From Prorocentrum cordatum (lineage: Eukaryota), in assembly GCA_963575745.1 (NCBI GenBank), contig CAUYUJ010000282.1, positions 1-64,000 on the forward strand: a stretch of 64,000 nucleotides of DNA. Direction: 5' to 3'. Under the pieces are notes generated by a model. The model saw nothing but the letters and a program-made list of their open reading frames with translations. It did no database searches and was not told the DNA's origin. This document shows, in pieces, positions 25,296 through 64,000 of the stretch. How positions within the stretch are numbered: position 1 is the stretch's first letter; every line of letters starts with the position of its first letter. The translations under genes were made by a program, and so were the position numbers.

Positions 25296-26579
25296 AGTGG
25301 GGGCCTCGCGCGTCGTAGGCCTTCGCCCGTTCCGGGCACTCCGGGGGGGGGGGGCTCGTGGCCACGGCCCGACGCAGCTCGAGGGCACGGGCCAGGACGC
25401 ACCCCGGGGAGGGATCCAGAGGGCCCGTGTTGGCCGGGTTTCGGTCGAGGGGCGGGCGGAGGGGGGCGGCCTGCCAAGAGGGACGGCCACGGGGGGATCC
25501 CGCAGAAGCCGGCCTGGAAGCTTCCGGGCCCTGCTCTGAGGAGCCCCGCCCGCCAATGCCCTTCGCATAGAATCGGGGGTGGACAGAACCCCCAACAGCG
25601 ACACGTCGATCAGTGAATTGTTCGTTTTTGTTTCGGTTCTCGAGATGGCGCCGTGGCCGTTATTTGCCAGGCTTGCGCCCGCCAGGTTTGGGCCTCAGGC
25701 CGTATTCACAAAACCACGTTTTACTAGAGGGGGGTCTGTCCATCTCCGATAGAAGGGCGGCGCCACTTCTCAGAAGGCGGTGGCCCCTGCGCCAGCCCCG
25801 TGTGCGCGCGCCGCCAAGGAGGCTGCTGGACGCGAGTGCCGAGAGCATGACCGAGCCAGAGCGGAAGGACGTCGGCCTTCGGGGGGGCACGGCAGGCGCA
25901 GCCAAAGCGGCTGGGGCATCCCAGAGAAGGGCCTCGCCGTCGGCGGAAGCGGGCAGAAGGGCAACGGCCGACGGCAGAGGGCGGCAGAAATCTGGCGGAA
26001 GGCGGCGGGGGAAGGACGATACGTCGACTTTTTTGGATCCATGGTTCCTGGAGTCGGGCCGCTGCGCTCGGTGTCTGCTTCCGTGTGTGTTTTTTTTTTG
26101 GGGGGGGGAGAAGATGGAGGCACCGAAGAGATCAGCGCGCGCTTTGCTGCGCGCGTGCTGCTGCCCACCATCATGTAGCCTTCGACTGTAGCCTTCGAGG
26201 GAAGAAGGAGTGCGCATGCCTTGGTTTCGCTTTCGCCAGCGGTGCGGGAGGAAAAGAGAAACATGGAGAGACAAGGCAGCCGGGCCCCTGATCGATCTCC
26301 TCCTGGACGACGCGGGCCCCCAGGGCCCCTGAGCCCGTCCCCATCCCCAGGAGCGGTTTGGCACACCCCGAGTCGTTTTTGTCGACAGTCCCACGGCCAG
26401 GAGCGAGCTTCGAAGGGCAGGAGGTGGCGACATGCTTTTTGGTTTTGTGGCGGTGGGAGTGATCGCACCGCGGTCGAAGCGGCCACCAGGCTAGCACGAG
26501 CTCGAATTTCGCACAAGAAGGGGCGCGGGAGAAGGGGGACGAGGAAGGGGGACGAGGACGAAGGAGGGACGATGAGGGG

Positions 26580-31632: not shown

Positions 31633-31770
31633 GACGTCCTGGAGGCCATGCGGGCCGCCTGGCAGAGCAGCGGTGGGCCGCAGCCCGTCGAGGCCGCGTT
31701 CGACCAGGGGAGCGGCTCCGTGCTCTTCGTGTCGCCCGACATGGAGAGCGCCCGGCGCGCCAATGTCTGA
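31633..31770 (+). CDS. Possible terminal exon of an unknown host gene
   Basis: CT-rich tract then ag|G; GC3-rich frame DVLEAMRAAWQSSGGPQPVEAAFDQGSGSVLFVSPDMESARRANV ending in TGA at 31770. Confidence 0.35.
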   Translation, partial: DVLEAMRAAWQSSGGPQPVEAAFDQGSGSVLFVSPDMESARRANV

Positions 31771-35581: not shown

Positions 35582-35715
35582 GATGGGCAGCAGGAGGCGG
35601 CGGCGGCGGAGGAGGAGGAAGCGGAGGAGGAGGAGGATCTGGCGCCCGAGGACATCGGGTATTCCTGGCTGTGTAGTGCGCTGGACGAGGCGTACGCGGC
35701 CGACGAACAGCTCAG
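35582..35715 (+). CDS. Possible isolated exon (acidic peptide)
   Basis: ag|GAT...CTCAG|ga; frame DGQQEAAAAEEEEAEEEEDLAPEDIGYSWLCSALDEAYAADEQL with GC3-rich codons. Confidence 0.3.
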
Positions 35716-45170: not shown

Positions 45171-45259
45171 GCTCCTCCATGTCCCAGGTCGCGGCGTCCC
45201 CCTCGCCAGTGACGCCTGCGGTGAACGCGCTCAGGTCGCCGTTAACCTTCAGCTGCGCC

Positions 45260-45989: not shown

Positions 45990-46235
45990 GGCGCCCCCGG
46001 CTTCGCATGCGCCTTCAACTTAACTCTTCGCTCCCGACGCTACAGCTGGGCGCGGCATGGCGCTCAGGCTTGGCGCATGGAAGGTTCGGCACCTACGCGC
46101 GCAGCACTTGGGGGCGCAGGCTATCTACCACCAGGAGCTCGCCCGGCTGAACAAGGTGCCAGGCGAACGCAACACAGCGGACATGATGACTAAGCACCTG
46201 AGCGGTGACATGATCGATTTCTTCATGGATCGGTA
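45990..46235 (+). pseudogene. Copia RNase H C-terminus in the original orientation
   Basis: DATAGRGMALRLGAWKVRHL...KVPGERNTADMMTKHL. Confidence 0.85.
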
Positions 46236-46707: not shown

Positions 46708-47902
46708 AAGACACAGAGACAGAGAGAGAGAGAGATGATCCTTCGTCTTCCCCCCCCCCCCCCCCTCATCCGCCGGGCACCTGCGCGCCGCCCCGCAAGA
46801 GGAGGTGGGGGCGCGCCGAGTGCGACGGCGGGCTGCCGAGCAAGCTGGTCTCCAGGGGGAAGGGAGCGGGTCTGAAGGGGAGAAGGCCTGGAGGGGGGTG
46901 TTGCCTGGAGGAGAGTGAGAGAGTGTGGCCTGGAAGCGAGTGGGCCCGAACGGGAGAGAGGGGAACCGAAGGGCACAGATCATCGGCATGGGCGTGAATT
47001 CCCAGAGCTCCGCGCAGGTTTCTTGGATCGTGCGCGGGACCCCTCGCGGGGGAGGGGGCTGGCCTGGATGAGGAGGGAGGACCGGTGAGGGGTGAGGGAG
47101 GGTGAGCGAGGGAGGACGAAGGCTCGAGGCAGGGAGGAGGATGGAGGAGGGATGGGAGCGTGAGAGGGGGTGGAGGCGAGGTGGGGAAGAGTGAGGTGGA
47201 AGCGCGACGGGATTTCCGCGGTCGGAGCGTCGAGATGATCGACGCGTTTGGTTCGGAGTGGGCTCGCTGCTCCTCAGCTCTGGTTTTCCACGTGGTTCCC
47301 ATGGACCTAGCAGGCATGCCAGCCCCTCTGGTGCCGGCAGGGCGCATCGATCGAGGAGGAGGGGGAGGAGGAGGAGGAAAGGGAGGAGGAGGAGGAGGAG
47401 GAGGAGGAAGGAGGAGGAGGAGGAGGAGGAGGAGGAAGAGGAGGAGAGAAGGAGGAGGAGGAGAGGGAGGAGGAGGAGGAGGAGGAGGAGGAGGGGGAGG
47501 AGGAGGAGGAGGGGGAGGGGGAGGAGGAGAAGATGGAGGAGGAGGAGAAGGAGGAGGAGGAGAGGAGGAGGAGGAGGAGGAGGAGGAGGAGGAGGGAGGA
47601 CTCTTTGGACTCTGTGGCCGAGCACCGAGACGTGCGGGGGGGAGAGAGCGGGGGGGAGAGAGAGGGCGGGCCCCAGCGGCGCTCCGCCGCCCGCCGCGCC
47701 CGCCTCCCGACGCGCGGGAGGGCAGTCGGGGAGAGGAACCCCCCAGACTGCGGGACCGCCCCCACGAAGGCCCGCAGGCCCACCAGAGGGGGCGGACGGC
47801 CTACCAGAGGCCCAAAACCGCGGAGGACGAGGGGGGGGGGGCGGGGGGGGCAGGGCCCACCACCAACCGCAGTCTGGACAGACCCCTCCCCTACCCCCTC
47901 CC

Positions 47903-49240: not shown

Positions 49241-49312
49241 CTGAATAGCCCGAGCAGGCGCTGCCGTTCCCAATCACACCTGCCCAACGCGGGGGTTACC
49301 CACGGGGAACGG

Positions 49313-49333
49313 CTTGAGCCAAAATGGCTACGG
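49313..49333 (-). other. Dinoflagellate spliced-leader (DinoSL) relic
   Basis: Reverse complement reads CCGTAGCCATTTTGGCTCAAG, a perfect match to the 21 invariant nt of DinoSL; no GT donor follows. Confidence 0.95.
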
Positions 49334-49929
49334 GAGGAGGAGGGAGGAGGAGGAGGAGGAGGAGGAGGAGGGGGAGGACGAGGAGGAGGGAGGAGGAGGG
49401 GGGGGAGGAGGGAGGGAGGAGAATGAGGAGGAGGAGGGGGAGAGGAGCAGGAGGAGCAGGAGGAGAGGAGGAGGAGGAGAGGAGGAGGAGGAGGAGGAGG
49501 AGGAGGAGGAGGAGGGGTCGCCTAAGCCCTTTCTCTCCGGGCCTTTTGATGCGGCGGTGCCACGACGGAGGGCAGGCAGACAACAAGTGCTGTCTCGGGC
49601 GCGGCGGGCGGCCTCGCTGGCCCGCGTATTCGCGCTGCAGTCGCGAGAGCGCCCAAGATACAGGGATGCCTCCTGCGTCAAAGGACAGAAACACATAATC
49701 ATGAACTTCTGGCGCTCCGCGCGGATTTCTTGGATCCGCGCCTGGGCCCCCCCCCCGGCCGCGTCTCCGGTCCCGCCCCTGGCGCGCTTCGCGCGCCAGG
49801 GAGGGGGGTCCAGCGCAGATCCAAGAAATCCGTGCGGAGCGCCAGAAGTGTATGGTTATTCCCCAAACAGCTTGCTGAACGGGGTGCTGTTGTGATAGAA
49901 GCTAACTCCGGCCGAGGGAAAGCTAAGCA

Positions 49930-51415
49930 GAGACATCCTCAAACAAATGTGGTGGTCCGGCCCGTTTCGCCTTAGACATCCTCACAACTCTCGTTTCTGA
50001 GTTGTCCGGGATTGAGCGTTTCGCCTGAGACATCCTCGAAAAGTTGCGCTCCGGGACGCCGCGCGAGAGGTGGTCCGGGCCGTTTCGCCTGAGACATCCT
50101 CAAAAAGTTGCGCTCCGGGACGCCGCGCGAGAGGTGGTCCGGGCCGTTTCGCTTGAGACATCCTCGAAACTCTGAGCCCCGAGGTGCCGTGCGAGAGGTG
50201 GTCCGGGCCGTTTCGCCTGAGACATCCTCGAAACTCTGAGCTCTGCGATGCCATGCGCGAGGTGGTCCGGCCTATTTCGCCTAAGACATCCTCGAAACTC
50301 TGACTTCGGAGATGCCGCGCGAGAGGTGGTCCGGCCCGTTGCGCTTGAGAAATCCTCGAACTTCTAAGCTCTGAGATGCCCTGCGCGAGGTGGTCCGGCC
50401 CGTCTCGCCTGAGACATCCTTGCAATTCTGAGCTCTGAGATGCCGTGCGCGAGGTGGTCCGGCCTGTTTCGCACAAGACATTCTCGCAACTCTGAGCTCT
50501 CAGATGCTGCGCGAGAGGTGGTCCAGCCTGGGCGCCCAGAAGACCACATGTGACATATCCTCCATGGGACCCTGCGAGCCTCAGGAGGCCCCAGAGAGGT
50601 CCAGGAGGCCGCAGGACGCCCAGGACAGGCCCCAGGGGCCCCCAGGAGATTCCCAGGAGGCTCCCAGGAGGCCCCAGGAGGCCCTCTATCAGAACGTGTC
50701 AAGTTAATACACATCCAGTGTCGATTCGTTGATTTTTCCTGCTCTTGTGCCCCCCCCTCCACTTTGACGGGCCCACGCGGCCACAGGTTAGATATCCCCC
50801 CTGGGAGCCCCAAGAGCCTTCAGGAAACCTCAGGTGGAGTTCAGGAGGCCACAGGAGGCCCAGGAGGAAGCTCCAGGAGGTCACCAGGAGGCCCCAGGAG
50901 GCACCAGGAGGCCGCAGGACGCCCAGGACAGGCCCCAGGGGTCCCAGGAGGCACCAGGAGGCCGCAGGATTCCCAGGAGGCTCCCAGGAGGCCCCAGAGG
51001 CTGCCTATCAGAACGTGTCAAGTTAATACACATCCGGTGTCGATTCGTTGATTTTTCCTGCTCTTGTGCCCCCCCCTCCACTTGGAGAGGCCCAAATGGC
51101 CACAGGTTAGATATCCCGGCTGGGAGCCCCAAGAGCCTTCAGGAAGCCCCAGGTGGGGTCCAGGAGGCCACAGGAGGCCCAGGAGGAAGCCCCAGGAGGT
51201 CCCCAGGAGGTCCCAGGAGGCCCCAGGAGGCCCCCGCAACTCGGAGCTCTGAGACGCCGCGCTCGAGGTGGTCCGGCCCGTTTCGCCTGAGACTTCCTCG
51301 CACCACGTTTCGCCAGAGACATCGTCGCAACTCTGGGGTCCGAGATGCCGCGCGCGAGGTGGTCCAGCCCGTTACGCTGGACACATCCTCGCAACTCTAG
51401 GCTCCGAGATGCCGT
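49930..51415 (+). repeat. ~60-65-bp satellite interrupted at ~50540-51235 by a tandem pair of ~319-bp units
   Basis: gagacatcctcgaaactctgag...gcgagaggtggtccggcccgtttcgcct about 10 times, plus about 3 copies after 51236; agaacgtgtcaagttaatacacatcc... at 50691 and 51010. Confidence 0.9.
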
Positions 51416-52362
51416 TCGGGATGAGGAGGTGGAGGAGGAGGAGGAGGAGGAGGAGGAGGAGGAGGAGGAGGAGGCATGTTTTAACATGCCATGCCAGCCC
51501 GCACTGGACGGGCACGCAATCGACCTTGGAAACCGCAGTGGGTCGAAAAACCCTGTTTGGGGATACTGCACTCCGGCTATAATGTGTTTTTGTTATTCCT
51601 CTACTCTGGGGAGCACGGCGGAGAACTTTTACAGCGTGTCGCGGCGGCGGCGGCCCCTGCGACACGCAAAGCTTTGCAAGCTGACAGCGCGTCGCTCTGC
51701 TTCGCGGGGCCGGAGGCTGGGAAAAGCGCTGATGCTCGGGGACTGGGACGTCATTACTAGCGCGTTGCGCCGGAGGGTGGTGTGCCAGAACTGGTGGCGC
51801 GGCACGGTAAGCAAACGTTACTGACCGCACGGGGGCTCAACGGTTTCGACGCCGGGGTCTGAGCGAGGGCGAGGACGGGATGTGACCGCATGTCTTTCCA
51901 GCGCTCGGCGCCCGTCATGGCCAGGCACGGTGATCCTCCGCGCGCATCCAGCAGGTGGCCTCCTCGTGCTCATTGCGCGAATCTGGCCGTGTGTGCCTTC
52001 AGCCTCTTGGAAGCGGGTGCCGGGCATGCTGGCCCTCGGGAGAGGAGAGGTGGGTTCTCCCTCCTCCCCCCCTCCCTCGCAGCCCTTTCACCCCGCCTGG
52101 CCCGCCCTCCCACCCTGTGCCCCCTCCTTCCCTCCTTGCACCCTCCTCCCCATCGCTTCCCCTTTCTCGCTCCCCATCGCTTCCCATCACTCGCTCCCCT
52201 CCCCACACTTCCCATCATTTCCCATCACTCACTTCCTCCTCCCCATCACTTCCTCATCACTCACTCCTCATCACCACCTCGCCTCCCTGTCTCGCTCCCA
52301 TCACTTCCCCCTCTTCCCCTCCCCTCACCTCCGTCCTCCTCCCCTCACTCCGCCTTCGTCAG

Positions 52363-52540
52363 GTCCGCCACTGGCGGGAGATCTTTGCTATCATCTGTCT
52401 CGTCATGCTGCTCGTCTTCTGCTTCCGGTGCGTGCGGCACCTGCAGCGGAACCCAGCGGCCCGCGACTACCACGCGGCAGGACTCTACACGTGCCTGAAC
52501 ACGTGCGACCTGCCCGACAAGGTGGACAACTGTACGCAAG
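52363..52540 (+). CDS. Exon a of the EMG1/Nep1-like gene (transmembrane helix + Cys-rich linker); upstream exon(s) not identified
   Basis: Long pyrimidine tract, cag|GTC...CAAG|gc; VRHWREIFAIICLVMLLVFCFRCVRHLQRNPAARDYHAAGLYTCLNTCDLPDKVDNCTQ; phase 1 joins 53008 in frame. Confidence 0.55.
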
Positions 52541-53007
52541 GCTGGGGACATGCCGACCATGCCGTGCCGGCCACCGGTCTTGGCCGCGTCCGTCCTGGGC
52601 CCGGCACCGACTCGGGGCCCAGGCCCAGGTCTCCGACGACATGGTCCTTTCAATGCCGGCACTTCTCGTTGGCTTCGGCCTCTGTATTGAAGTTGCCATG
52701 TGCAGAGCAGCGATATTAGCACGTGTTGTGGCTCCCCACACCCCCTGTGCCCGCCTCGTGGTTTCCCACCGATCGGTGTCTGGGTCTCGTTGTCGGCCCC
52801 TACAAAGCGATCCCGGCCTCTGGGTCTCGTTGTCGGCCCCTGGGGGCAACAAAAAGGGCACCCGTGACGAACACCCTCCTTTGGGGAAGGGGTCGGAACC
52901 TCCGGGGCCGCGCATTTGGAAACAGTCGGGTCGTCGGATGTCTCGGGGGATGGGCCTGGCCAGGACTGGCGCCTCGGCGCGTGATCGGCAGCCTCCCCGC
53001 GCGCGAG

Positions 53008-53063
53008 GGCGGCACAGGGTGATTGTCATCTTGGTGGACGCTCCGCTGGAGGAGAAGACCGAG
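53008..53063 (+). CDS. Exon b of the EMG1/Nep1-like SPOUT gene
   Basis: (G)RHRVIVILVDAPLEEKTE resembles EMG1 RRLIVVLEGASLE; gag acceptor (alternative cag at 53017), GA donor. Confidence 0.7.
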
Positions 53064-53481
53064 GACTGGCGGGGCGCGGGAGGGGGGCCGTCGAGGGGAG
53101 CGGCCTACCCCTGAGTGCCCCGCTCGGGGCGCGTTTCGTGGGGTCGGGCGGGGCACGCGGGGCGTGCTCGTGTACAGCGGGGGCCCGTGCCAAGGAACAC
53201 GCTGCTTGCCTCTAGGGAGCCCTGGGCTGCTTGGGTTTCGACGGTTTTGCGGTGGAAGGCGCGGCGTTCCCACGCCAAACATCGATGGACGTCCTGGGGT
53301 CTCAGGGTTGGGTTTCTTGTGGAAGGTGTCTTGTGGGCTGGCCCCCACTGTACCCTCCTGCCTTCGAAGGAGCCTTCTTAGAAGGCTCTGGGCCCTCCGG
53401 AGAAGCCTCCGAGCCCTTCCTGAAAGACCGCACCACCCCCCTCGCGCTGACCCCTCCTTCTCCGCGCGCGCCGCCAGCGAG

Positions 53482-53625
53482 GACCTCGAGAACACCTCGA
53501 CATATCCAGAGGAGAACGAGCTGTCCATCGTCTACGACAGCCTCCTGTCGCTGCTCGACAGCGGCCTCGCGGCCAAAGGCATGTTGCAGATCTTCATCGT
53601 GTCGAGAGGGGGCGCCGTCATCCAG
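53482..53625 (+). CDS. Exon c of the EMG1/Nep1-like SPOUT gene
   Basis: IVYDSLLSLLDSGLAAKGMLQIFIVSRGGAVIQ resembles [33 protein letters not shown]; 144 nt, GT donor. Confidence 0.8.
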
Positions 53626-54182
53626 GTGAGCGCCCAGGGAGAACGGGCTCGACTGCGCGGGGCGCTCGCGCCCGAGCTGCCCGCGCGAGGCCGCGCGCGA
53701 GCGCCCTCGTCCCCACGCCGCGCCCGAGAGGGCCTCGCCTCGGGCGCGCCCTCGCCCTCGAGAGGCGGACGCCGGCGGCACAGTTCGAGGCGGCGGGCGG
53801 GGGCCCGCCGGCGGCAGGCCGGCGGCAGGCCGGCGGCAGCGGGCGTGAGGCGCCCGCGCTCTCGCAGCCCGGGCTTCCGGCGTCGCCCCACTGCCGGGTG
53901 CCGCGACGGCGGCGAGCTCGGGGGCGGAAGAGAGGGGGGTGATGACTATAGGGGGGGGTGGATGTCATGGCGTGGGCCATGGTATTTCCCCAGATTTCAT
54001 GGCGCCTCTTCTTATCTCATTACGTCCCTGGCCCCCCCGCTGGGCCCCGCACATGCCGCCGGTCATGATTGGCACCCCCCCCTCTTGGACACCCCCCTCT
54101 CTGCCGCTCCCGACGAGCGTGAGCCTTGCGCGCGAGGTCGCCACGTCCTCGCGCGCAAGGCTCTGTCCGTTTCGCCGGGCAG

Positions 54183-54229
54183 GTGCACCCCCACCTGGAG
54201 CCTCCGAGGAGCCTGCGGGACTTCTCCAG
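54183..54229 (+). CDS. Exon d of the EMG1/Nep1-like SPOUT gene
   Basis: VHPHLEPPRSLRDFS(R) resembles VNPQTRIPRTFDRFCG; cag acceptor, GC donor, phase 2. Confidence 0.8.
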
Positions 54230-55402
54230 GCGGCCGGGGAGAAAGCCAGTCACCCGCCCTCCACGGACGAGGGCAGCTTCTGGCCCTTCCTGCCAGCGAC
54301 CTCCAGGGACGGTGGGTTCGCTGGGAGGTCCGCGATTCGGCCAGTTCGGCTGCTTCGCAGTCGGCTGCGTTCGGTCGGTCCGGTTCGGTCGGTGGTCCGG
54401 TAGTCCTTGCCGCGTCGCTGCGCCCCTCTGGGCTGCTTGCAGCCTGTCGGTTCCGTTTGGCTTCGGTCTCGTTGCGGGTCCGGTTGGTTTCCGGCTGTGT
54501 TGCCGCCGTTTGCGGCCCTGGTTCGAGAGGCGGGGGGGCTCGATTCTGATGGGCCAGACTTTTGCGCTCGGCTCCGCCGCGCGGGGGCCGGGGCCAGAGG
54601 CAGCGATCGGCCACTGGCTCTCGGCCTAGGGTCTCTGGTCTTCCGAGCAGCTCTCGCGAGCCCCTGGAGTCAAGCAGTGGTGAAGCGTCCTGGCTTGCTT
54701 ATGGACCCACCGAAGAATGTTCTACGAACCTTCTTTGTGGCTTGCACGAAATGTTCTTAGAACGTTTCTGGCTGAGACTGTCCTTCTTAAATGCATCGGG
54801 TGGGTCCGAAGAGCATCTCGTGGCAGGCCTATGGGAATGCCGGGACGGTCGGTCCCTGCTGTATATGGAGAGGCCTCCAAGACTCGAGGAGCAACCCGCA
54901 GAGCACGGGCGCAGCCTTTTTCGGAGGTCCGCGCGGAGGTCCTCGATTCGGCGCCGGGCCCGCCTCCCTGCAGGCGGGGGGGACTCCAGCGCCAGGCTTC
55001 GGTCGGGCATGTCCTGCTACAGGCGGATTTGGAAGGACAAATGAACACAGTCAGACACAAAGATAATCGAAGAGTGGTCGAATAAACGTCCCCTTACTGT
55101 TTCTTGAGTATGTCTGAGTACTCAGCCTGTTGAGGGACATGCCCGACATGGCGCCAGACCGAACAGTTCACGCGGATCTCCGAACGTTCATATTTGCTGT
55201 GCACGCCCTGTTGGTTCGTTCTTCCAACCCTGAGATCCGACGACGAGACATCCACATCGTGAGGCATCAAGCTCAGAGGCCCAATGGCATCCCAACGGTC
55301 TGCGCCACTCCTCGAGCCGGATCGGGCCGTAGGGGCCCACGGGGCGCGAGGATTCGGGCGAAACCGCCCGGAGTGAAAAAGTTGCGACGCCAGGACCTCA
55401 GG

Positions 55403-55448
<46 letters not shown>

Positions 55449-55545
55449 AAGTCGTCGTCGCCGTCGTCGTCGCCGTCGCTGTCGCTGTCGCTGTCGCCGA
55501 CGCCGTCGCTGTCGCCGTGGGGGCACGTCCGCGGCCGCCTCGAAG

Positions 55546-55690
55546 GCTGGTCAGGAACGTCCTGCACGAGGGCAAGGCGATGAAGGCCCCTGGGCTGTGT
55601 GGGTGCACCCGCTCGTTGATGCGCGTCGTGCGCAAGCCCGTGCGGCACCACTTGCCCTGGGGCTGCAAGGTCTACGGCGTGACGCAGCAG
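55546..55690 (+). CDS. Exon e of the EMG1/Nep1-like SPOUT gene
   Basis: LVRNVLHEGK...LMRVVRKPVRHHLPWGCKVYG resembles LMVQLLHKLS...LLKVIKNPVSDHFPVGCMKVG; phase matches exon d; GC donor. Confidence 0.8.
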
Positions 55691-56159
55691 GCGGCCGGAC
55701 GGCCTTGGTCGTGAATGGGAGGAGTTGGCGGCGCGCGCAAGGGGCGGGGGCGCGAGGGGGTTCTCAGAAGGCAGGCCGCTTTTCAGAAGCCACCCCAGCT
55801 TCCAAAAATACAGGGCTCATGAGGAGCCTCCATGCCCTTCTGAGAAGGCCCCCGCCTTCAAGAAGCACCCCGCCTTCTCAGAAGTCCGCCCCCCTCGCGC
55901 CATCCCCTTGGGCGCGCCGCCAACGGAGAGAGATTGCACTGATTTGTTGCGAGCCTCGGGCCCATCCACCTACGCGCGCCATGGGGGTCAAGGGCTTTCT
56001 GTGAGCGGCTCTGGGCTGCCAAGGCCTCCTCTGGTCTTTCTCCAGAGGCTCCCAGAATTTTGGAGCACACCTCTCTTGTGGCGGGTTAGGACGGTCGGCC
56101 GACGCGCTGGACCCTGGGCGGCACCTGTCGCGACGTTGGACACGTGCCGCGGTCGCGGA

Positions 56160-56677
56160 CTCAGCAGGGCGAGGAGGAGAGGGGGGAGTGCGAGGACGAG
56201 GGGGGGAAGAGGGAGAGGAGGAGGAGGAGGAGGAGGAGGAAGAGGAGGAGGAGGAGAAGGATGAGGAAAAGGAGAAGGAAGAGGAAAAGGGAGGAGGAGA
56301 AGGAGGAGGAGGAGATGGAGATGGAGATGGAGATGAAGATTGAGATTGGGGAGGAGGAGGAGGTCCTCCTCCTGGAGGAGGAGGAGGAGGAGGAGGAGGA
56401 GGAGGAGGAGGACACAGGAGGGGAGGAGTAGAAGGGATTAAGGATGTACTTTGGGAGAGCTATTGGCCCCGATTTGGGGCCTCCGTAGGCTCTGAAGCCC
56501 ACGGGCCCGTCGGCCGAGGAGTGGGGGGATCGCGTTCGGCAGCAGGTACCGCCCGCTCTTGGCGGCCAGTTCTGCGTGGGGAGGAGGGGGGAAGGGAGCG
56601 GGGGCACTCTCTGCGTGGGCCAGGCTGAGCTGCTGCTGCTGCTCCTCCTCCTCCCCTCCTCCTCCTCCTCCTCCTCC

Positions 56678-56744
<67 letters not shown>

Positions 56745-56775
56745 CATCCTCATCCTCATCCTCATCCTCATCCTC
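56160..56775 (+). repeat. (GGA)n tract, then (CCT)n-(CAT)n tract
   Basis: Direct reading. Confidence 0.85.
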
Positions 56776-58439
56776 GATCTTCCACCCACGCACCTTCTCT
56801 CCTCCTGCACTTCGGCGCAGCTCTCGCTCGCACTGTTCGATGCATGGTGCTCATTCTGGATTGGCGAGCCTGGCAGGCTGCTTGAGGTGGGCAGTCTCAG
56901 CATCACTTCAAGGCGTACTCGAGGGCAATCTGGAAGGCGCGGTGTGAGGAGGGGCTGAGGCGGCAGGTCGGCATGCTCGCAAGACCCCTCCCACTACTCA
57001 CTCTCGACGCATTCCCTCGGCCTGATCTCGTCCAGGCCCTCAAGCTGGACGTGCTGCTGGGTCAGCGTTTGCTGAGCAAGCTTCGGGGGCGGCTGGTTGC
57101 CCTAAGGCACTCCTCTGGGTCCTTCTCCTCGGCACGGAGGCAGTCTTGCGATTTCTACGGAGAGCACCTTCTGAGTCCCACATGATATGTCCTAGGGAGC
57201 TGCAGCTGGACGGAAAACGCCAGTTGTGCCTTTTGGGAGGCCAGTGGGAGCATGGTGGATCCCGACTCAAGGGAGGCTGCGGCCACGGTGGTTCTGTTGG
57301 CTGCCCCAGCTGAATTGGGGTACGCGGAGGCGGCGCTGCTGGCGTTCCATGTGGAGAGGGAGGCGGATAGCTTCTGGGCGCCAGCTGGTGGAAATGGGCG
57401 CGCCCTCTCTCCCTCTTCCTCATCTCCTGCCCTCCTTCGACCCTGCCAAGCGCTCCGGGTGGGCGTGTCAGGTCGGGCTGGGTCTCCCTTTCCCCTCCTC
57501 AGCCTTCTCCACTCCTCTGGCGCCCTGCTCTGGCTGCCGTGTCCGTGGGCTTCCTTGTCCTCGCCGCCGACGCCTTGGGAGGTGGTCCGGGCGAGGAGCC
57601 ACACTCCCCTCTGAGGCTTGCACGAGAATGCAGATACTTGTTTTCGCATTTGCCGCACCCCACTGCAGGGTGCGCGTCTGGAGGCTAGACGCTTGAGAGT
57701 CGACCTGCGGCTTAGCAGGCTTTCCGCACCAATGAATGGCTCGGGATCGAGGCGCCACGCGCTGCGGCATGCCCGTTCCATGACAAGACCTTCGGAACAT
57801 AACGAGCTCTGAGGCTTCGAACCTCCACCCAGTCCGGCGCTCCGGGTGGGCGGGTCGGGTTGGGTCTCCCCCTCCCCCTCCTCTTCCCTCCCTCTTCCCC
57901 CTGGGGTGGCTCCCTCCTTTCCTGCTGCCATGTCGTACTCGTGAGGTACGTCGACGAGACAGCGCAGATGAGGTCGGACGGGCCCCGGGCAGGTGCTCTC
58001 CTCTGCCTTCCCCCCCCCCCCCACACAGACGCACACTGCGGGGAGTGCCTGAGTGGCCTCTCCTGCCACGCCGCTTGCCGGGGCGTGTGTCGGAGGCGCC
58101 TGCCAAGGAGAAGCCTTCTCACGCAAGCCCTCCCCCCAGTATGTCTCCAGAGCCGGCGCGGCAAGGTCGTTTCCCGGGCCTTCCCGGACCGTGGTCCTTT
58201 GCTATAGGGAAGCCTCGCCCGAAGCTTCTGTATGCAGACCCGACGGGAACACATTGGTATCCTCTTCGTTTCTCCTCCTCCTCCCTCTCCTCGCTTCTCC
58301 TCCTGTTCTCTCATTATCCTTTTCCTCCTCCTCCTCCTCTTTCTCCTCCTTCTCCTCTTATCTTCAAGTCGACCTCCTCCCTCCCCTTCTCTTTCCCTTC
58401 TGTCGTCGTCATCATCCTCCTGCTGCCTCCTGTTCAAGA

Positions 58440-61400
58440 TCGCAGCGGTGTTGGGGAGGCAAGTCTAGTCAGGCCATCCATTACATGCTGGAAGCGACGG
58501 GCCAGCATCTTCAGACGCTGCGCCACAGGGACATGAAAGCCAACCGGGACGAGTGGCGTGCCTGGGCCAAGCAAGCAGCTGAGGCGCAGGGAGGGCGAGC
58601 GGCCTTCGCCTTAGTCCGTTCGGCTGCCCATGTCCAAGGGTCGGCGTTCGAAGTGTTGGACGAGGATGAGCAGCAGTACCTCCCGGTGGGGGGCGTTGAT
58701 GCAGTGGCGCGCGTCCTGAAACAGTGGCAGCAGCTTTGGGTACACGATCTGCGCGAGGGTGAAGTACATTCATAGTTGCGGCGAGGAGCTGAGTTCGACG
58801 CGGGGCAGCTGCCTGCGCTCACACGGGCCGAGCTCGAGCGGGTCGTGGACACGTACAGCGAGAAGGCAGGTGGGACATGCAGCATCCTCGTTATTTCGCC
58901 GGCTGCCAAAGAGTTTCAGGCTGCGGTTCTTTGATAACTTGCGAGCTTGGGAAGCCGATCCGCTGGACAGCAGGCTGTTCCTGATGCTGGTTTCGTTTTT
59001 GCCCAAACCGCCTCCAGGAGGTGGCGTGGCACGGCGTGCGCCCCGTTGTCCTCAACTGTGTCTGGCTGCGGATTTGGAGCAGGATGAGGCAGCCGCTGGT
59101 GGCGGCCTGGGAGCGCCAGATGGAGGGCAGCTTCTACTGGGGAGGCGTGGGCAAGACGTGCGACCGTGCGGGCCACGTGCACAACCTGCTGGCCGTTTAC
59201 TGCGTGCAGCACTGGAGCATGGCGGCAGGCACGGCAGCCCTGGACCTCAGCAGGTACTACAAGCACGTCTCGCACGAGGCCCTCCTGCGCGAGGCGCGGC
59301 AAACGCGTTTTCCGCTCCCGCTGCCGCGGGCACTGTGTTGTGGCCACCGCCTGGGCAGGCGGGCGAGGCTCGCAGGGGCGCTGTCGGTGGATATCCGCGC
59401 CAATAGCACGATTCGCTGCGGGCTGCAGCTGCGCGCTGGGGCTCGCAAAGCTCATGGTCCACACGCTGCTGGTCGAGCAGGCGCCGAGGCTCCCGCTGGT
59501 GCGGGCGCAGCACCTCGTTGACGACCGGCTGCTGCAGGCCCCCGGCACCGCCAAGGTGGTCAGCGACCAGCTTCCGAAGGCGCTGCGCTTCCTCGTCGAC
59601 GGGCTCGAGTCCAGGAAACTAAAGGTCAACTGGGCTAAGACGGGCTGGTTGACGGGCGATGAGGGGCTTGCCCGGGGACTCGAGAGTTGCTGGCAGGGCG
59701 AGCTGGAACGTGCCCGTGACATCAGATGCCTGGGCGGATGCGGCACGTCAGGAGTCCTCCGCAGCGTTGTCGAGCAAGGCAAAAGGTTGTTGAAGGCCTA
59801 GAGCTCAGCCGATAGGGTGCACGCTCTGAGGGATGCTGAAGCTTCGGTGGCCAAGGTTTCTCGTTGGTCCTCCGCGGCCGCAGCTGTCTGGGGATCAGCG
59901 GTCACGGGCATAGCAGGTTTGAAATGTAACTGATTAAGAACCCCTGTTTTGGAAGTCCAATGGTGACTTCCGACGGGGGCCAGCGTGGGCCTCAGGCTCA
60001 AGCGCATGTTTCGAGGGTTTTGGAGGGGCCCGCTCCTGGTGCACTCAAGTGAAGTTGTTCAAGCTTGGGCTCTCTGCCTGGAGGCTTCTTCGCCGTCGCC
60101 TCGGGGTCCCGGAGGCCGTCCTGGAGCGTTCTCGGGGCGTCGTGGGCGAGACGTCTCCGTGGGCAAGGCGCTGCAACCCTGCGCGGGCGCTGCTGCTTGC
60201 CCTTGCGAGAGTCGGAGGTCGGATGGTCTCTGTCCCGAAATTCGCCGGCCCTGCAGGTGAAGTCGATATGTAGTTTTTCCCGCCAGGCAGAGCGGTGGCA
60301 ATCGCTACGGGGATGGCGCCCATCGCGTCTGACGCTCTTGCGATGAAGCGCTGCGGTAGTTGGGCTTCTGAGCCCCACTGGGCCCCCCTAGACGAGGTCC
60401 TGCGTGGGAAGGCGGAGGTGGGGCTCACTAGGCACGGGCGCAATCCAGTTAGGAGTCTGGTCTCGGGCGCGCGCTGGCCTCGGGCGAGGCTGGCGAAGCG
60501 TGGCGAATCGGCGTCGGATGCGCGTCAACTGCCCGGCTGTCGGGGCACTCTGTCCCATCGGAGTTTCGATTGCCCGTGCTCAGCAGGTTTCAGGCGCGCG
60601 GGTTTGTTGCCCTCCCTCAAGAGAATTGCCTGGGAGGTGGCGGTCCTTGATGAGGAAGAGGGTGAGTTTCTCCTCCCCCGAGGTGCGCGTTTCCTCCTCC
60701 GAGGCAGTGTCGAGAGGCCCGAAGCCCCAACGTAAAATTGGGCGCGCTTCGGGGGGGCCGCGCCAGGCTGGAGATGGGGAGGCCCCATCTTCGTGGATGG
60801 GCCAGCCTCCCATGCGGAATTCGTTTCGTGCAGGAGAGCAGGCTGGGCCGCAGTGCAGATTGACCAAGCCGGCCGCTTTGTCGCCTGCATGTATGGGGCG
60901 GTGCCTCGGGGGCGGGGGCCTGACCAGTGGGCTCGGTGCGGGGGAGACTATGCTTCCACGTTCTTGCTAGGTTTAGTGGGCCTTCTCAGGAGGGAGACGT
61001 CGGCGTTCCGCTCACTGTGCGCAGTGATTGTGCCGGCTCAATCTCCTGCCCCACCTCCTCGGCCATTGCCTTCGACCCAAGCAGCGAGAGGCGTCGCATG
61101 CGGCAGCCGCGGTGGTCCAAAGTCGGCCAGTCTGCTACGGCGTGCAAGGTCAAAGCCCATAGGTCGCCGCAGGAGGCCACCTCCTGGGATGACGGGTGGC
61201 AGCTCAGAGGGAATCGTCTAGCGGACGAATGGGCCAGGAAAGGGGCCCAGCTCTGGTCCACGCAGGTAGAGCAGGAACTTTTGGTCGAGGGATGTGAGCG
61301 GTTCGTGGTGCACGCGGCCGAGTGGCAAGGCAGGCTCCATCGCTGGCTCCACGATTCGGGCTTCAGCGTCGGTGGGGCGGCCGAGGTGGTCCTTCAGTTC

Positions 61401-62110
61401 CATGCTTGTCCGACCAACGTGGAGGAGGCGGATCTAGTGAACGAACTGGATCAGCGCCTGGCCCAGCGTGAAAGGGAAGGCCTCCTAGAGGCCATGCCTG
61501 CTGGGGGTGGGGGAAGCGGCTCTGGGTAGGGCGCGGCTCGGCTCTGATTATGCTGCTCCCGGCTCCTCCGTTGGCTCCTCGGCTTCTGCTCCTGACCTGG
61601 CGCCCCACCTCTCGGGGCTTAGGTGTGGGGGGGGAAACACTTGGCAGTTCAAGAGGCAAAATGTGGTGCGCTTCCAGTTTTGGCATGTGTCTCAAGTGGT
61701 GCGAGTGTTCAAAGCTGCCGCGGGCCAGGGAAAGGGCTGGCTGTCAGTGTTTCGGGCCCAGGCATCCTGGACCCGCCACTCAGCGCAGCAGGCTCAGACG
61801 TAGCTTGCACCCCAACTCCACCAGCGCCCCTCCCCCTAAGCTCGGCGAGCTGTGTGAGCCGTCGGTTGAGATCCGGGCCTTGTGGCAGGGTATGCTGGTT
61901 GTTTCCGAGTCCTCGGAGAGTGCTGACCCAGCGGTCAGTACCGTGTATGGGTTGAACACCCCCGGTGTCCTGGATATGTACCGTGTCGCGCAGCTGCACG
62001 GGTTTGACGATCCGCGGGAAGCGGTCGAGTTTCGCTGTGCTGAGCGCGAACGCGAAGCCAGACTCGAGAGGAGTGCTGGCTCAGACGTGCTTAATTTATT
62101 ATTAAATTTC
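58440..62110 (+). mobile_element. 5'-truncated decayed LINE (RT + RNase H) inside the ~7-kb intron of the EMG1-like gene
   Basis: FLPKP..GG, RPVVL..WLRIWSR, ALDLSRYY, AGCSCA, LVDD, LKVNWAKT (RT); IFVDG..RAGWAAV, KVKAH...GNRLADEWARKGA (RNase H); AT-rich end near 62092-62109. Confidence 0.85.
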
Positions 62111-62685
62111 GCTGTGAGCCCCCTAGTGTCCTACGGTCCTCCTGCTCCTCTTCCCTCCCATTCGATCCTCCTACAGCTTTTCAATATGACTACTATTCTC
62201 CTCTCCCCTGAATACGGCTGGGGAGAGGCCCGCCCCCTGCGTTCAAAGCGGCGCTGCCGCTCCAGCGAAGGCCTCATTTTAGCATCGGCGCTTTGCTCCC
62301 ATCGTTCAGGCTGGCGCTCTCGCCCCAGCGCGGGCCGCTCATGTGGATCAGAGTGTTCGTCGTTGTCGCCCCGCTCCTTTCTCTTTCCCGCCTTCCCTTG
62401 GTCATCTTGCTCCTCCCGCTTCTCCATACTCCAGCTCCTGCTGCTGATGTTCCTCCTCGTCGCCTTCCGTCCTCATCCTCCTCCCCCTCCTCCTGCTATA
62501 TCCTGCTCAGCCTCCTGCTCATCCGTCACCTCCTTTTCTTGTTTTTTGTCTCGATGGGTTTCTTTTTGGACTTCGAGGTCCGCAACGACAGGCGTCGGCG
62601 GATGGTGGGAGAGGTCTGATGTCAGATATGGCGGGAGCTCACCTAGCTTCTCCCCCTCTCTCCTGACCAGGCGTGCCGAGACCAG

Positions 62686-62814
62686 GCGAGCCACATCCTC
62701 GACCTGAAGCAGGTCGCGAGCTCCGTGTACTGGCCCGTCGCCTTCGTCGTCGGCGCCTCGTTCGGCGATGCCGTGGCGGAGAATTGGACGAGTGCCGGCG
62801 GCCAGGGCCTCCAG
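62686..62814 (+). CDS. Exon f of the EMG1/Nep1-like SPOUT gene (3' boundary uncertain; final exon not found in window)
   Basis: ASHILDLKQVASSVYWPVAFVVGASFGD resembles VVSDVRELVPSSDPIVFVVGAFAHG (SAM-binding knot region); phase 0 joins exon e; in-frame alternative acceptor at 62670. Confidence 0.75.
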
Positions 62815-63499
62815 GTTCCCTCTCTTCCTCCTTCTCCTCCTATTCCTCCTCCTCCTCCTCCTCCTCCTCCTCCTCTTCTTCATCCTCCTCCTCCTCCTCT
62901 TCCTCCTCCTCCTCCTCCTCCTCCTCCTGTGTCTCCTCCACATCTTCCGTATAAGCAACTCCTCTCCGTCGCACCATCAGTAGGGCGGGTCAGGCTTTTC
63001 GCCGAATTAAAAGCTCCACACCATTGGTGGTCTTGAAGTTTGAAATCTGCAGCGGTTTTCAAGGATGGAGGGCGTGCTATTTTACAAACTGTGGCTCTCG
63101 CTTTTGCGCCGCGCGCCTTCGTCTTCAAAACTCAACATCAGCTTCAAGGATGGAAGGCGGATGGTTTGCAAACTGTGGATGTTGCTCTTGCGACGCGCGC
63201 ATTCGTTTTGAAGTTTTGCGGCAGCCTCAAGGTGTCCTCTAAGAGCTACCCCGGCTCACCCGCCGCGCGCAGCCGCGCCTCACCCAGTCCCGCTCAGACT
63301 CCCCTCGCTGCTTGCGATGACTAGACGCTGCACCCTTGTGTCTCGTGGGAGGCGGCGTGGATGCCCCGGCGCTTTCGGGAGGCGCCCTGTGCGCCGCGCG
63401 TGCTGCTGCCGCTACCGGCGCGGGCGCGGCAGCCCCGGCCGCCGCCGATGTCATGGACGAGGCTTCGGAGGAGCAAGTCACGTGGACTGACGCAGGCCG

Positions 63500-64000
63500 C
63501 TGCCAGGCTGGCGGTGTTCGATCCGCTGGCCGCGCCGCCTGGCGCCGGCACCGCGGCTGCCGGAGACTCTAATGCCGACCCCCTCCGCGACACGCTCTTC
63601 CAGGAATGGGCGCACCAGGAGATCCTCGTGCACTTCGAGCTGATCCACGCGATGGTTACCAGCAGTATTACGATCAACGACCTCCCGATCGCCCTTCCCA
63701 CAAACCTCGACGCCCTGAAGGTGATCTATAAGAAGTTGGCCTACGTGGTCGGCGCCGCGGACCCGTGGTTGTACCTTGGCCTCGCCCGCTTCGAGGGTCT
63801 CACCCCGTCGGAGCAACTGATTGCTGCGCGCTTGCGCACGGCCCTTGGGCGGATTGGATCCGTGGGCGGAAGAAGTTGAAGAACCATGGGCGGATTGGAT
63901 CCGGCGATCCACGCGTGCCGCGGAGGAGTGTCTGAAACGGCTCAATATCGATGACTGGAGACACCTGGCAACAACGGAGGCCGCCGAATGGGCGACACTT
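63500..64000 (+). other. Coding-like segment of unknown identity (possibly the start of another retroelement)
   Basis: GC3-rich frame DPLRDTLFQEWAHQEILVHFELIHAMV...LKVIYKKLAYVVG with a stop at 63879; no recognised motif. Confidence 0.3.

What the first reader, a model, noticed from the sequence alone, without database searches (positions are those of the whole stretch)
52363..62814. Divergent EMG1/Nep1-like SPOUT methyltransferase apparently fused behind a transmembrane helix and lacking the RPD motif
Seen: six phase-compatible exons, invisible in the ORF track, splice into a frame collinear with EMG1/Nep1 from the first beta-strand to the PVAFVVGA knot motif. Known: EMG1/Nep1 is a soluble nucleolar 18S rRNA pseudouridine N1-methyltransferase with a conserved RPDI motif (RNA-binding Arg; the Asp mutated in Bowen-Conradi syndrome) and an RIPRT motif. 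Here these read ELSI and EPPRS. The upstream exon adds a hydrophobic stretch (IFAIICLVMLLVFCF) and a Cys-rich linker. Inference: a neofunctionalised, possibly membrane-anchored or secretory-pathway SPOUT enzyme with a non-rRNA substrate. I know of no description of such a protein.
Basis: partly seen in the sequence, partly recalled or inferred. Interest (0 to 1): 0.8.

Follow-up and report, generated by a model that had tools for sequence, protein, structure and literature searches.

The report
Membrane-tagged, motif-stripped EMG1/Nep1 paralogue
A dinoflagellate (Prorocentrum cordatum) gene that is transcribed and correctly spliced encodes a copy of the ribosome-maturation methyltransferase EMG1/Nep1 that keeps the fold's hydrophobic core, has lost the catalytic and most RNA-binding residues, and sits behind a predicted membrane helix, so it probably no longer does the ancestral job.

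Summary
The window comes from Prorocentrum cordatum. PolyA-RNA contigs from two runs of one study join all six exons with no mismatches. The last acceptor is 62671, not 62686, which adds five in-frame residues. The spliced product is already public as an unnamed partial protein (P0122, 319 aa). It scores 75.3 bits (E 6e-21) against Pfam EMG1 and E 3e-12 against human NEP1.

- **Lost residues:** yeast R88-P89-D90 read E-L-S here. R129 and R136 read E and D. Only R132 is kept.
- **Other losses:** the first Nep1-specific insertion finds no match. The conserved hydrophobic core positions are kept.
- **Coding signal:** every exon has GC3 of 0.81-1.0.
- **Hydrophobic stretch:** it scores 2.58 on Kyte-Doolittle and is modelled as a helix. 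At least 81 residues precede it.

My best reading is an expressed, lineage-specific EMG1-derived domain that keeps the fold and no longer methylates 18S pseudouridine. It is probably a membrane-tethered pseudoenzyme or a repurposed module.

Three things remain unseen. The C-terminal end of the knot lies outside the window. No orthologue was found. A canonical EMG1 in this species could not be searched for. I rate it a new variant of a known kind, of moderate interest.

The parts
25847..25867 (+). First coding exon of the public models P0001/P0122 (ATG at 25847; donor GA)
   Evidence: tblastn of P0001. The exon chain reproduces the protein exactly. The frame stays open for 92 codons upstream, so the true exon start is unknown.
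31633..31743 (+). Upstream coding exon 2 (acceptor AG|G, donor GA)
   Evidence: GC3 0.97
35651..35715 (+). Upstream coding exon 3 (donor GA)
   Evidence: GC3 0.81
46802..46847 (+). Upstream coding exon 4 (donor GT)
   Evidence: GC3 1.0
52363..52540 (+).
   Evidence: RNA contig pieces cover 52362-52538 with 0 other letters in both runs. GC3 is 0.86.
52381..52425 (+). Hydrophobic run IFAIICLVMLLVFCF (residues 88-102), predicted transmembrane helix
   Evidence: The Kyte-Doolittle 19-residue mean peaks at 2.58 at residues 87-105. AlphaFold2 models helix 79-110 at pLDDT 63-76, even though the input alignment had placed Nep1 beta1 on it.
53008..53063 (+). Exon encoding RVIVILVDAPLEE, the likely beta1 strand of the SPOUT core
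   Evidence: RNA joints on both sides. Modelled strand at 144-149. The N-terminal Nep1 profile places beta1 here, but at -1.6 bits, which is not significant.
53482..53625 (+). Exon encoding the degenerate catalytic loop, helix alphaA, and strands beta2-beta3
   Evidence: Alone it hits Pfam EMG1 at E 1.6e-5. All 7 PDB hits are NEP1.
53518..53529 (+). E172-L173-S174-I175 in place of the invariant R-P-D-I catalytic loop
   Evidence: Alignments to human and yeast NEP1. The role of yeast R88/P89/D90/I91 is taken from passages of PMC3064781.
54183..54229 (+). Exon encoding VHPHLEPPRSLRDFS (start of the second Nep1-specific insertion, helix alpha-c')
   Evidence: RNA joints. The profile alignment runs straight across both splice junctions.
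54198..54221 (+). E213-P-P-R216-S...D220, equivalent to yeast R129-I-P-R132-T...R136; only R132 is kept
   Evidence: PMC3064781
55546..55690 (+). Exon encoding the rest of the second insertion and beta4 (profile 117-143)
   Evidence: Pfam EMG1 E 0.049 alone. Its only 2 PDB hits are human NEP1. RNA piece 55544-55687.
62671..62814 (+). It holds the 5-residue insertion ACRDQ and the strand with PVAFVVGA (62734-62757).
   Evidence: RNA joint 55687->62668 with 6 letters of slack and 144 letters on the shorter side. P0122 contains ACRDQ. The frame stays open at 62814 with a GT donor. The next exon is not in the window.

Best explanation
This is a real, transcribed, multi-exon gene of Prorocentrum cordatum. 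Its product carries an EMG1/Nep1-derived SPOUT domain behind a predicted membrane-spanning helix and a short Cys-containing linker.

The domain keeps the buried hydrophobic positions that build the Nep1 fold. It has lost the residues that make Nep1 an rRNA pseudouridine N1-methyltransferase:
- the R-P-D catalytic loop;
- two of the three arginines of the R-I-P-R...R RNA-reading motif, both replaced by acidic residues;
- the LLD/N-x3-H segment of the first Nep1-specific insertion;
- probably the Phe that caps the adenine of SAM.

I therefore infer that it no longer binds or methylates the 18S helix-35 loop. It most likely acts as a non-catalytic, fold-retaining module, possibly still dimerising or binding a ligand, tethered to a membrane in a lineage-specific protein.

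Shown: the splicing, transcription, homology, substitutions and coding periodicity. Inferred: the membrane anchoring, the loss of activity, and the existence of a separate canonical EMG1 that does the ancestral job.
For: **Transcription and splicing.** Two polyA RNA runs (one study) each hold a contig (2712 and 3073 nt) that joins all six exons with 0 other letters. Spliced joints cannot come from contaminating DNA.

**Public model.** The splice product is identical to public protein P0122, CAK0789688.1.

**Homology.**
- Pfam EMG1 scores 75.3 bits, E 6e-21, over residues 174-300, matching profile positions 51-165 of 197.
- 9 of 10 PDB sequence hits are NEP1, with human at E 3.3e-12.
- All listed Foldseek rows with E <= 0.001 are Emg1/Nep1 chains; the call counts 19 such matches.

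**Coding constraint.**
- The frame is open over 319 codons and 10 exons.
- GC3 is 0.91 overall and 0.81-1.0 in every exon. None of 5000 intron windows of equal length reached 0.912; the maximum was 0.897.

**Pattern of loss.** In the confidently aligned stretch 175-227 there are 22 columns conserved at >= 95% in 45 archaeal Nep1 sequences.
- 8 are identical (7 hydrophobic plus one Ser).
- 2 are conservative hydrophobic changes.
- 12 are changed; 10 are polar or charged residues, one is a Gly, and one is Ile->Pro.

**Functional residues.**
- E172, L173 and S174 stand for yeast R88, P89 and D90.
- E213 stands for R129, R216 for R132 (kept), and D220 for R136.
- In yeast, R88 is the proposed catalytic residue, held in place by D90. 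Ala mutants of R88, R129, R132 and R136 lose RNA binding (PMC3064781, passages).
- R88D almost abolishes RNA binding (PMC2241868, passages).

**Helix.** The Kyte-Doolittle mean is 2.58. The stretch is modelled as helix 79-110.
Against: - No orthologue was found. phmmer of P0001 (residues 1-207 of the protein plus intron read-through) against 1.84 billion representatives found only itself. Conservation of the architecture therefore cannot be shown, and a young decaying fusion is not excluded.
- The last 30-40 residues of the knot (beta6, alphaE, and the SAM loop equivalent to yeast S228-L232) are not in the window or in the public model. Neither SAM binding nor dimerisation can be judged.
- The structure model is poor: mean pLDDT 55.6, pTM 0.39, and everything after residue 244 is below 50. 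Foldseek TM-scores are only 0.22-0.45.
- No dedicated transmembrane predictor was available.
- MAFFT offered another alignment in which the hydrophobic run is beta1.
- The RNA evidence is assembled contigs from a single study, and there is no protein-level evidence.
- A canonical EMG1 in this species was not shown.
- Loss of catalysis would not by itself mean loss of the ancestral role. Yeast Emg1 mutants that cannot bind SAM still support growth (PMC2241868, abstract).
Confidence: 0.5

Rival explanations
1. One reading: a neofunctionalised, still active SAM-dependent SPOUT methyltransferase, anchored at a membrane, that now methylates a substrate other than 18S rRNA.
For: - The fold core is kept, and so is the strand-loop G299-A300 of the knot.
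- R216 (yeast R132) and D185 (yeast D101, which holds R132) are both retained (PMC3064781).
- The coding signal is strong in all exons.
- SPOUT enzymes have switched substrate class before. The 2022 review abstract reports one protein-methylating member, and Sfm1 is listed there.
Against: - By the alignment to human NEP1, the Phe that stacks on the adenine of SAM (yeast F182) reads Q270, next to a 5-residue insertion.
- The second backbone Gly of the SAM loop (yeast G212) is displaced by one position or reads D304 (roles from PMC2241868).
- The proposed catalytic Arg is Glu.
- No new basic or otherwise conserved surface can be shown without orthologues.
- The C-terminal SAM loop is unseen.
Confidence: 0.2
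2. A transcribed but functionless by-product: a duplicated EMG1 fragment captured into another gene and now decaying, still spliced and polyadenylated.
For: - No relative was found among 1.84 billion representatives.
- Exon 6 alone finds no other protein.
- Functional residues are lost wholesale.
- The public model is partial.
- The introns are large. They carry coding-like open segments on both strands and long codon repeats. I take these for mobile-element remnants, but only one weak zf-CCHC match supports that.
- The species is reported to have many duplicated, slightly different gene copies (PMC10666404, passage).
Against: - There is no stop or frameshift in 319 codons across 10 exons.
- GC3 is 0.81-1.0 in each exon, above all 5000 intron controls.
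- The substitutions are not random: the hydrophobic core positions are kept and the polar ones changed.
- All nine splice junctions are of the regular kind for the species.
Confidence: 0.2
3. The hydrophobic stretch is not a membrane helix. Instead it is the buried first strand or a packing element of an extended SPOUT domain, with exon-2 'ILVDAPLEE' standing for the LLD-x3-H segment. The protein would then be soluble.
For: - MAFFT aligned Nep1 beta1 (MPLIIILVE) on residues 92-100 and LLDNALH on ILVDAPLEE.
- Under that alignment, the spacing from the LLD-like Asp to the RPD-equivalent is 20 residues. It is about 18 in the archaeal sequences of A1/A2 (my count).
Against: - AlphaFold2 was run on that very alignment. 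It still modelled 79-110 as one long helix and 144-149 (VIVILV) as the strand.
- The N-terminal Nep1 profile puts beta1 at 146-167, though not significantly.
- Fifteen consecutive hydrophobic residues are long for a beta strand.
- Pfam does not align profile positions 1-50 to either candidate.
Confidence: 0.1

Closest known systems
Eukaryotic EMG1/Nep1 (human EMG1, yeast Emg1; PDB 5fai, 2v3j, 3oii)
   Same: - Same Pfam family, PF03587, at 75.3 bits.
- The match is collinear from helix alphaA to the knot strand, with human at E 3.3e-12 over residues 167-308.
- It keeps I91, D101, R132, F137 and L140 (yeast numbering) and the second Nep1-specific insertion.
   Different: - R88-P89-D90 reads E-L-S, R129 reads E, R136 reads D, Q94 reads D and Q143 reads N.
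- The first Nep1-specific insertion is unmatched, with 16 residues between the 'PLE' of exon 2 and ELS. I recall about 30 in human, which no call here shows.
- There is a 5-residue insertion where the SAM-capping Phe should be.
- A predicted membrane helix and at least 81 further residues lie upstream.
- The C-terminus is unknown.
- EMG1 is a soluble nucleolar homodimer.
Archaeal Nep1 (M. jannaschii 3bbd, A. fulgidus 3o7b, P. horikoshii 9jgb; Asgard Nep1 fetched here)
   Same: A local match of 23.2 bits to a 5-sequence archaeal profile covers alphaA through alpha-c' and runs across two splice junctions.
   Different: All archaeal-invariant polar residues in that stretch are changed. NCBIfam Nep1 equivalog models score 14-30 bits against cut-offs of 250-375.
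Yeast Emg1 SAM-binding mutants (D214R, L232S, A237D)
   Same: They are a precedent that an Emg1 fold can act without catalysis. These mutants lose more than 100-fold in SAM binding and still support growth (PMC2241868, abstract and passages).
   Different: Those mutants keep the RNA-binding surface and stay in the pre-ribosome. Here the RNA-binding residues themselves are gone.
Sfm1, the SPOUT protein arginine methyltransferase
   Same: It is an example of a SPOUT fold turned to a non-RNA substrate (listing; table passage of PMC9508554).
   Different: It belongs to a different SPOUT clade, is a soluble monomer, and its active site is known. No similarity to it was tested or seen here.

Membership tests
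EMG1/Nep1 (Pfam PF03587) | Score above the family's gathering threshold | tested here: met
   P0122 scores 75.3 bits, E 6e-21, against a cut-off of 28.2. The shorter isoform P0001 scores 26.3 bits, below the cut-off.
EMG1/Nep1 (Pfam PF03587) | Invariant catalytic loop R-P-D-I at the start of helix alphaA | tested here: not met
   It reads E172-L173-S174-I175. The invariance and role come from passages of PMC3064781.
EMG1/Nep1 (Pfam PF03587) | RNA-reading arginines (yeast R129, R132, R136) | tested here: not met
   They read E213, R216 and D220, so 1 of 3 is kept.
EMG1/Nep1 (Pfam PF03587) | First Nep1-specific insertion with LLD/N-x3-H between beta1 and the catalytic loop | tested here: not met
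   Pfam profile positions 1-50 are unmatched. hmmalign leaves these columns as gaps. MAFFT's alternative placement lacks the His.
EMG1/Nep1 (Pfam PF03587) | Second Nep1-specific insertion (alpha-c', beta-c', beta-d') | tested here: met
   It is aligned to human 5fai over residues 213-269 with a single 4-residue gap.
SPOUT superfamily | Alpha/beta core with a trefoil knot that forms the SAM site (loops beta4-alpha-d', beta5-beta6, beta6-alphaE) | tested here: inconclusive
   G299-A300 of the knot strand are kept. The F182 equivalent reads Q270, next to a 5-residue insertion. The G212 equivalent is displaced (PMC2241868). The beta6-alphaE loop lies beyond the window. The model is below pLDDT 50 after residue 244.
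SPOUT superfamily | Fold similarity to solved members | tested here: inconclusive
   All listed Foldseek rows with E <= 0.001 are Emg1/Nep1 (19 such matches counted), but TM-scores are 0.22-0.45 and rmsd 5-8 A, on a low-confidence model.
SPOUT superfamily | Homodimer through alphaA and alphaE | not testable with these tools
   alphaE is not in the sequence available, so no complex job was sent.
Single-pass membrane protein | A hydrophobic helix of about 19 residues | tested here: met
   The Kyte-Doolittle 19-residue mean is 2.58 at residues 87-105. The stretch is modelled as helix 79-110. No dedicated predictor or topology test was available.

The most novel reading that the evidence does not exclude
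A dinoflagellate has turned the EMG1/Nep1 knot fold into the cytosolic or lumenal head of a membrane-anchored protein with a new activity. The activity could be a SAM/SAH-binding sensor, or a methyltransferase acting on a non-rRNA substrate at a membrane. This would be the first membrane-bound member of the SPOUT superfamily. The 2022 SPOUT review never uses the word 'membrane' (0 occurrences in its main text).
Probability: 0.15. Interest if true: 0.7.

Novelty: new variant of a known kind. Interest (0 to 1): 0.42.

Why it matters
EMG1/Nep1 is usually seen as a conserved, soluble ribosome-assembly factor found in archaea and eukaryotes.

This copy is expressed, keeps the knotted fold's core, has lost the catalytic loop and most of the RNA-reading residues, and sits behind a membrane helix. 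It would be a clean natural example of a SPOUT domain freed from its rRNA role. It would also add to the many lineage-specific 'dark' genes of dinoflagellates.

If it still binds SAM or still dimerises, it would show what the Nep1 scaffold can do apart from rRNA. If it is only a decaying fusion, it illustrates how gene duplication in very large dinoflagellate genomes produces transcribed chimeras.

In practical terms, the public annotation calls it an unnamed partial product. This report gives it a family, a corrected exon structure and a list of lost residues.

Tried and rejected
- **Whole-genome search** for a canonical EMG1: no genome is held for this window.
- **Earlier notes** of this scan: none.
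- **Pfam scans of window ORFs.** I scanned 280 of the 337 plus-strand open frames of >= 60 aa, those starting up to 53216. I also scanned 27 selected frames on both strands. Nothing informative turned up upstream of 52363. My first impression of reverse-transcriptase or RNase H frames in intron 55691-62670 got no Pfam support, so I dropped it.
- **Relatives in large collections.**
  - phmmer of P0001 against 1.84 billion representatives found only itself.
  - Exon 3 searched against longer proteins found only P0001.
  - Exon 6 found nothing.
  - The archaeal Nep1 profile returned 120 listed hits, all 45 that carry an organism name from Asgard archaea and no listed name eukaryotic. No eukaryotic or dinoflagellate EMG1 could be collected, so the paralogue question stays open.
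- **Exon 6 alone** has no PDB hit and no Pfam EMG1 hit.
- **NCBIfam:** only sub-threshold archaeal Nep1 models.
- **ESM Atlas:** the nearest clusters are EMG1, at 0.75 and 0.85, which is lead level only.
- **Missing C-terminal exon.** A six-frame profile scan of 62815-64000 found nothing. The open frame 63325-63876 instead resembles light-harvesting proteins, weakly.
- **Introner-type inverted repeats** at intron ends: none of 8 nt or more.
- **RNA cover.** Parts of the stretch have no contig cover. This is not used as evidence, since contigs show presence only.
- **Supplements of PMC10666404.** Two files are held as text, and none contains NEP1, EMG1, PF03587 or pseudouridine. The gene annotation tables could not be seen.
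- **Not attempted.** A second structure job and a dimer prediction were not sent, because the domain lacks its last helix.
Full report
**What the window is.** A search with the translation of exon 3 found one protein, 100% identical. NCBI names it 'unnamed protein product, partial [Prorocentrum cordatum]', and it has a precomputed PF03587 domain (P0001). The window is G+C-rich, 0.51-0.72 in 2-kb steps.

The splice sites fit what is published for this dinoflagellate: donors GT 24.7%, GC 51.4% and GA 23.8%; AGG acceptors 79.7%; mean intron 4709 bp (PMC10666404, Table 2, passage seen). No whole genome is held for the window, and this scan has no earlier notes on it.

**Checking the observation.** The six exons splice into an open frame. 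RNA evidence is direct. Two polyA RNA runs from one study each hold one contig, of 2712 and 3073 nt. These lie on 52362-52538, 53478-53622, 55544-55687 and 62668-62815 with no differing letters. They carry the joints 52538/53006, 53059/53478, 53622/54180, 54227/55544 and 55687/62668. These are assembled contigs, so they show presence and joining, not expression level.

The last joint has 6 letters of slack. Five residues (ACRDQ) are therefore added in frame.

A cluster look-up then showed that the public annotation already holds exactly this product. P0122 (CAK0789688.1, 319 aa, partial) equals the first 81 residues of P0001 plus my RNA-guided splice, letter for letter. P0001 (CAK0789687.1) is an isoform model that reads on into the intron after exon 3.

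**The gene is larger than the finding.** Position 52363 is an internal acceptor. The public models add four upstream exons at 25847-25867, 31633-31743, 35651-35715 and 46802-46847. I verified these on the DNA. They have donors GA, GA, GA and GT and AG|G acceptors, with introns of 3.9-11.1 kb.

The RNA contigs run 1786 and 2292 nt upstream of 52362. The annotated coding sequence upstream is only 243 nt. They also run 210 and 65 nt past 62815, with no joint to anywhere in 62816-64000. What lies at either end could not be seen, because the single read-laying run covered 50001-64000. P0122 stops open at the exon end.

**Is it coding?** Third-position G+C is 0.91 over the 957 nt, and 0.81-1.0 in each of the ten exons. 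Second-position G+C is 0.32-0.67. In 5000 intron windows of the same length, the best of the three phases had a median of 0.68 and a maximum of 0.897. The hydrophobic exon shows the same periodicity (0.62/0.41/0.86), which supports its frame.

**Is it EMG1/Nep1?** Yes, by sequence.
- P0122 scores 75.3 bits (E 6e-21, cut-off 28.2) against Pfam EMG1, over residues 174-300 and profile positions 51-165 of 197.
- 9 of its 10 PDB sequence hits are NEP1/Emg1, with human at E 3.3e-12 and yeast at 1.2e-9.
- Single exons already pointed the same way. Exon 3 gave E 1.6e-5, and all 7 of its PDB hits were NEP1. Exon 5 gave E 0.049, and both of its PDB hits were human NEP1. Exon 6 gave nothing alone.
- I built a profile of five archaeal Nep1 sequences, fetched through archaeal genome handles. 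It scores the spliced protein at 23.2 bits, in one alignment that crosses two splice junctions. None of 2000 shuffles exceeded 5.9 bits.

An AlphaFold2 model built with 41 archaeal Nep1 sequences as the alignment is poor: mean pLDDT 55.6, pTM 0.39, and below 50 after residue 244. All listed Foldseek rows with E <= 0.001 are Emg1/Nep1 chains (the call counts 19 such matches), but with TM-scores of only 0.22-0.45. Fold evidence is therefore consistent but weak.

**What has been lost.** The alignments use yeast numbering, and S174 aligns to residue 90 of 2v3j.
- R88-P89-D90-I91 read E172-L173-S174-I175.
- R129-I-P-R132-T read E213-P-P-R216-S.
- R136 reads D220.
- Q94 reads D178 and Q143 reads N227.
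- D101, F137 and L140 are kept.

The yeast Nep1-RNA structure paper (passages read) gives the roles. R88 is invariant and is the likely catalytic residue. It is held by invariant D90, the Bowen-Conradi position. P89 and I91 are also invariant. R129, R132 and R136 read the RNA bases. Ala mutants of all four arginines lose RNA binding. The Emg1 structure paper (abstract and passages) reports that R88D almost abolishes RNA binding.

In the confidently aligned stretch 175-227, 22 columns are at least 95% conserved in 45 archaeal Nep1 sequences, 40 of them Asgard. Of these columns, 8 are identical here (7 hydrophobic, 1 Ser) and 2 are conservative hydrophobic changes. The other 12 are changed. Ten of those are polar or charged residues, one is a Gly, and one is Ile to Pro.

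The first Nep1-specific insertion, with its LLD/N-x3-H segment, finds no match.

At the SAM site, the knot strand G299-A300 is kept. By the alignment to human NEP1, the adenine-capping Phe (yeast F182) falls on Q270, beside the 5-residue insertion. The second backbone Gly (G212) is displaced by one position (roles). This part of the alignment is less certain. The last SAM loop is beyond the sequence available.

**The hydrophobic stretch.** IFAIICLVMLLVFCF (residues 88-102) gives a Kyte-Doolittle 19-residue mean of 2.58.

MAFFT aligned Nep1 beta1 onto it, and aligned LLDNALH onto exon 2's ILVDAPLEE. That would make it a buried strand. The structure job was run on that very alignment. It nevertheless modelled 79-110 as one helix (pLDDT 63-76) and VIVILV (144-149) as the strand. 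An N-terminal Nep1 profile also places beta1 on exon 2, though not significantly, at -1.6 bits.

The chance that the stretch is really a membrane helix is about 0.6. It is internal, not an N-terminal signal. Basic residues flank both sides, so topology is open. The 38-residue linker has three Cys (C-x3-C-x8-C) and is modelled as disordered, with pLDDT 30-36.

**Relatives and literature.** phmmer of P0001 against 1.84 billion representatives found only itself. Exon 6 found no other protein. The archaeal profile search listed 120 hits, all 45 that carry an organism name from Asgard archaea and none named as eukaryotic. Neither orthologues nor the species' canonical EMG1 could be examined.

- Full-text search for EMG1 with dinoflagellate gave one unrelated paper.
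- SPOUT with transmembrane or membrane-anchored terms gave 10 listed papers, none of which contains 'SPOUT'.
- EMG1/paralog/SPOUT/catalytically inactive listed no description of such a protein.
- The 2022 SPOUT review has 0 occurrences of 'membrane' or 'pseudoenzyme'.
- The two supplements of the genome paper held as text do not mention NEP1, EMG1 or PF03587. Its annotation tables could not be seen.

**Verdict.** This is a real, expressed, EMG1-derived protein with a predicted membrane helix, and it has lost canonical function.

The evidence favours a fold-retaining, non-catalytic or repurposed module (0.5). The alternatives are an active enzyme on a new substrate (0.2), a transcribed decaying fusion (0.2) and a soluble protein whose hydrophobic run is buried (0.1).

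It is a new variant of a known family. It is of moderate interest, and limited by the missing C-terminus, the absence of orthologues and the lack of protein-level data.

Noticed in passing
window 63325-63876 (+): This is a 184-codon open frame with coding-like GC3. Its best PDB sequence hits are fucoxanthin/chlorophyll and light-harvesting proteins, weakly (E 0.033 and 0.57). It has no Pfam hit and no RNA contig cover in X1/X2. It could be a silent or degenerate light-harvesting gene fragment downstream of exon 6.
   Followed up: partly
window 40710-43752 (+) and 44470-46007 (-): Runs of open, GC3-rich segments lie inside the 11-kb intron. One has a sub-threshold zinc-knuckle match at 41264-41539 (E 0.0014, 19 bits against a cut-off of 20.8). 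The minus-strand set contains a string that reminded me of the cytosine methyltransferase PC motif, but it has no Pfam hit. These are probably mobile-element remnants.
   Followed up: partly
window 47906-49273 (-): A 456-codon open frame lies on the opposite strand inside intron 46848-52362. It has strong coding periodicity and no Pfam family.
   Followed up: partly
window 26.5-27.1 kb, 32.8-35.2 kb, 38.4-38.7 kb, 47.3-47.6 kb, 56.2-56.8 kb, 62.8-62.95 kb: Long trinucleotide repeats read as runs of E, L, S, I, Y, M or D in open frames on both strands. They account for the strong GC and AT skews at 26-28 kb and 32-36 kb.
   Followed up: no
window 53942-54100 and 54670-54997: Short RNA contigs of high depth lie in introns 3 and 4, with several mismatches, odd short 'joints' and many loose ends (tables 2, 5, 7). 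They look like transcribed repeat copies from elsewhere in the genome, not exons of this gene.
   Followed up: no
upstream of window 52362 (RNA contigs X1 record 2, X2 record 8): The transcript contigs extend 1786 and 2292 nt upstream of the hydrophobic exon. The public model has only 243 nt of coding sequence there. The remaining 2.0 kb or more is unexplained. It could be a long 5' UTR, further exons, an upstream coding unit or a chimeric assembly.
   Followed up: no
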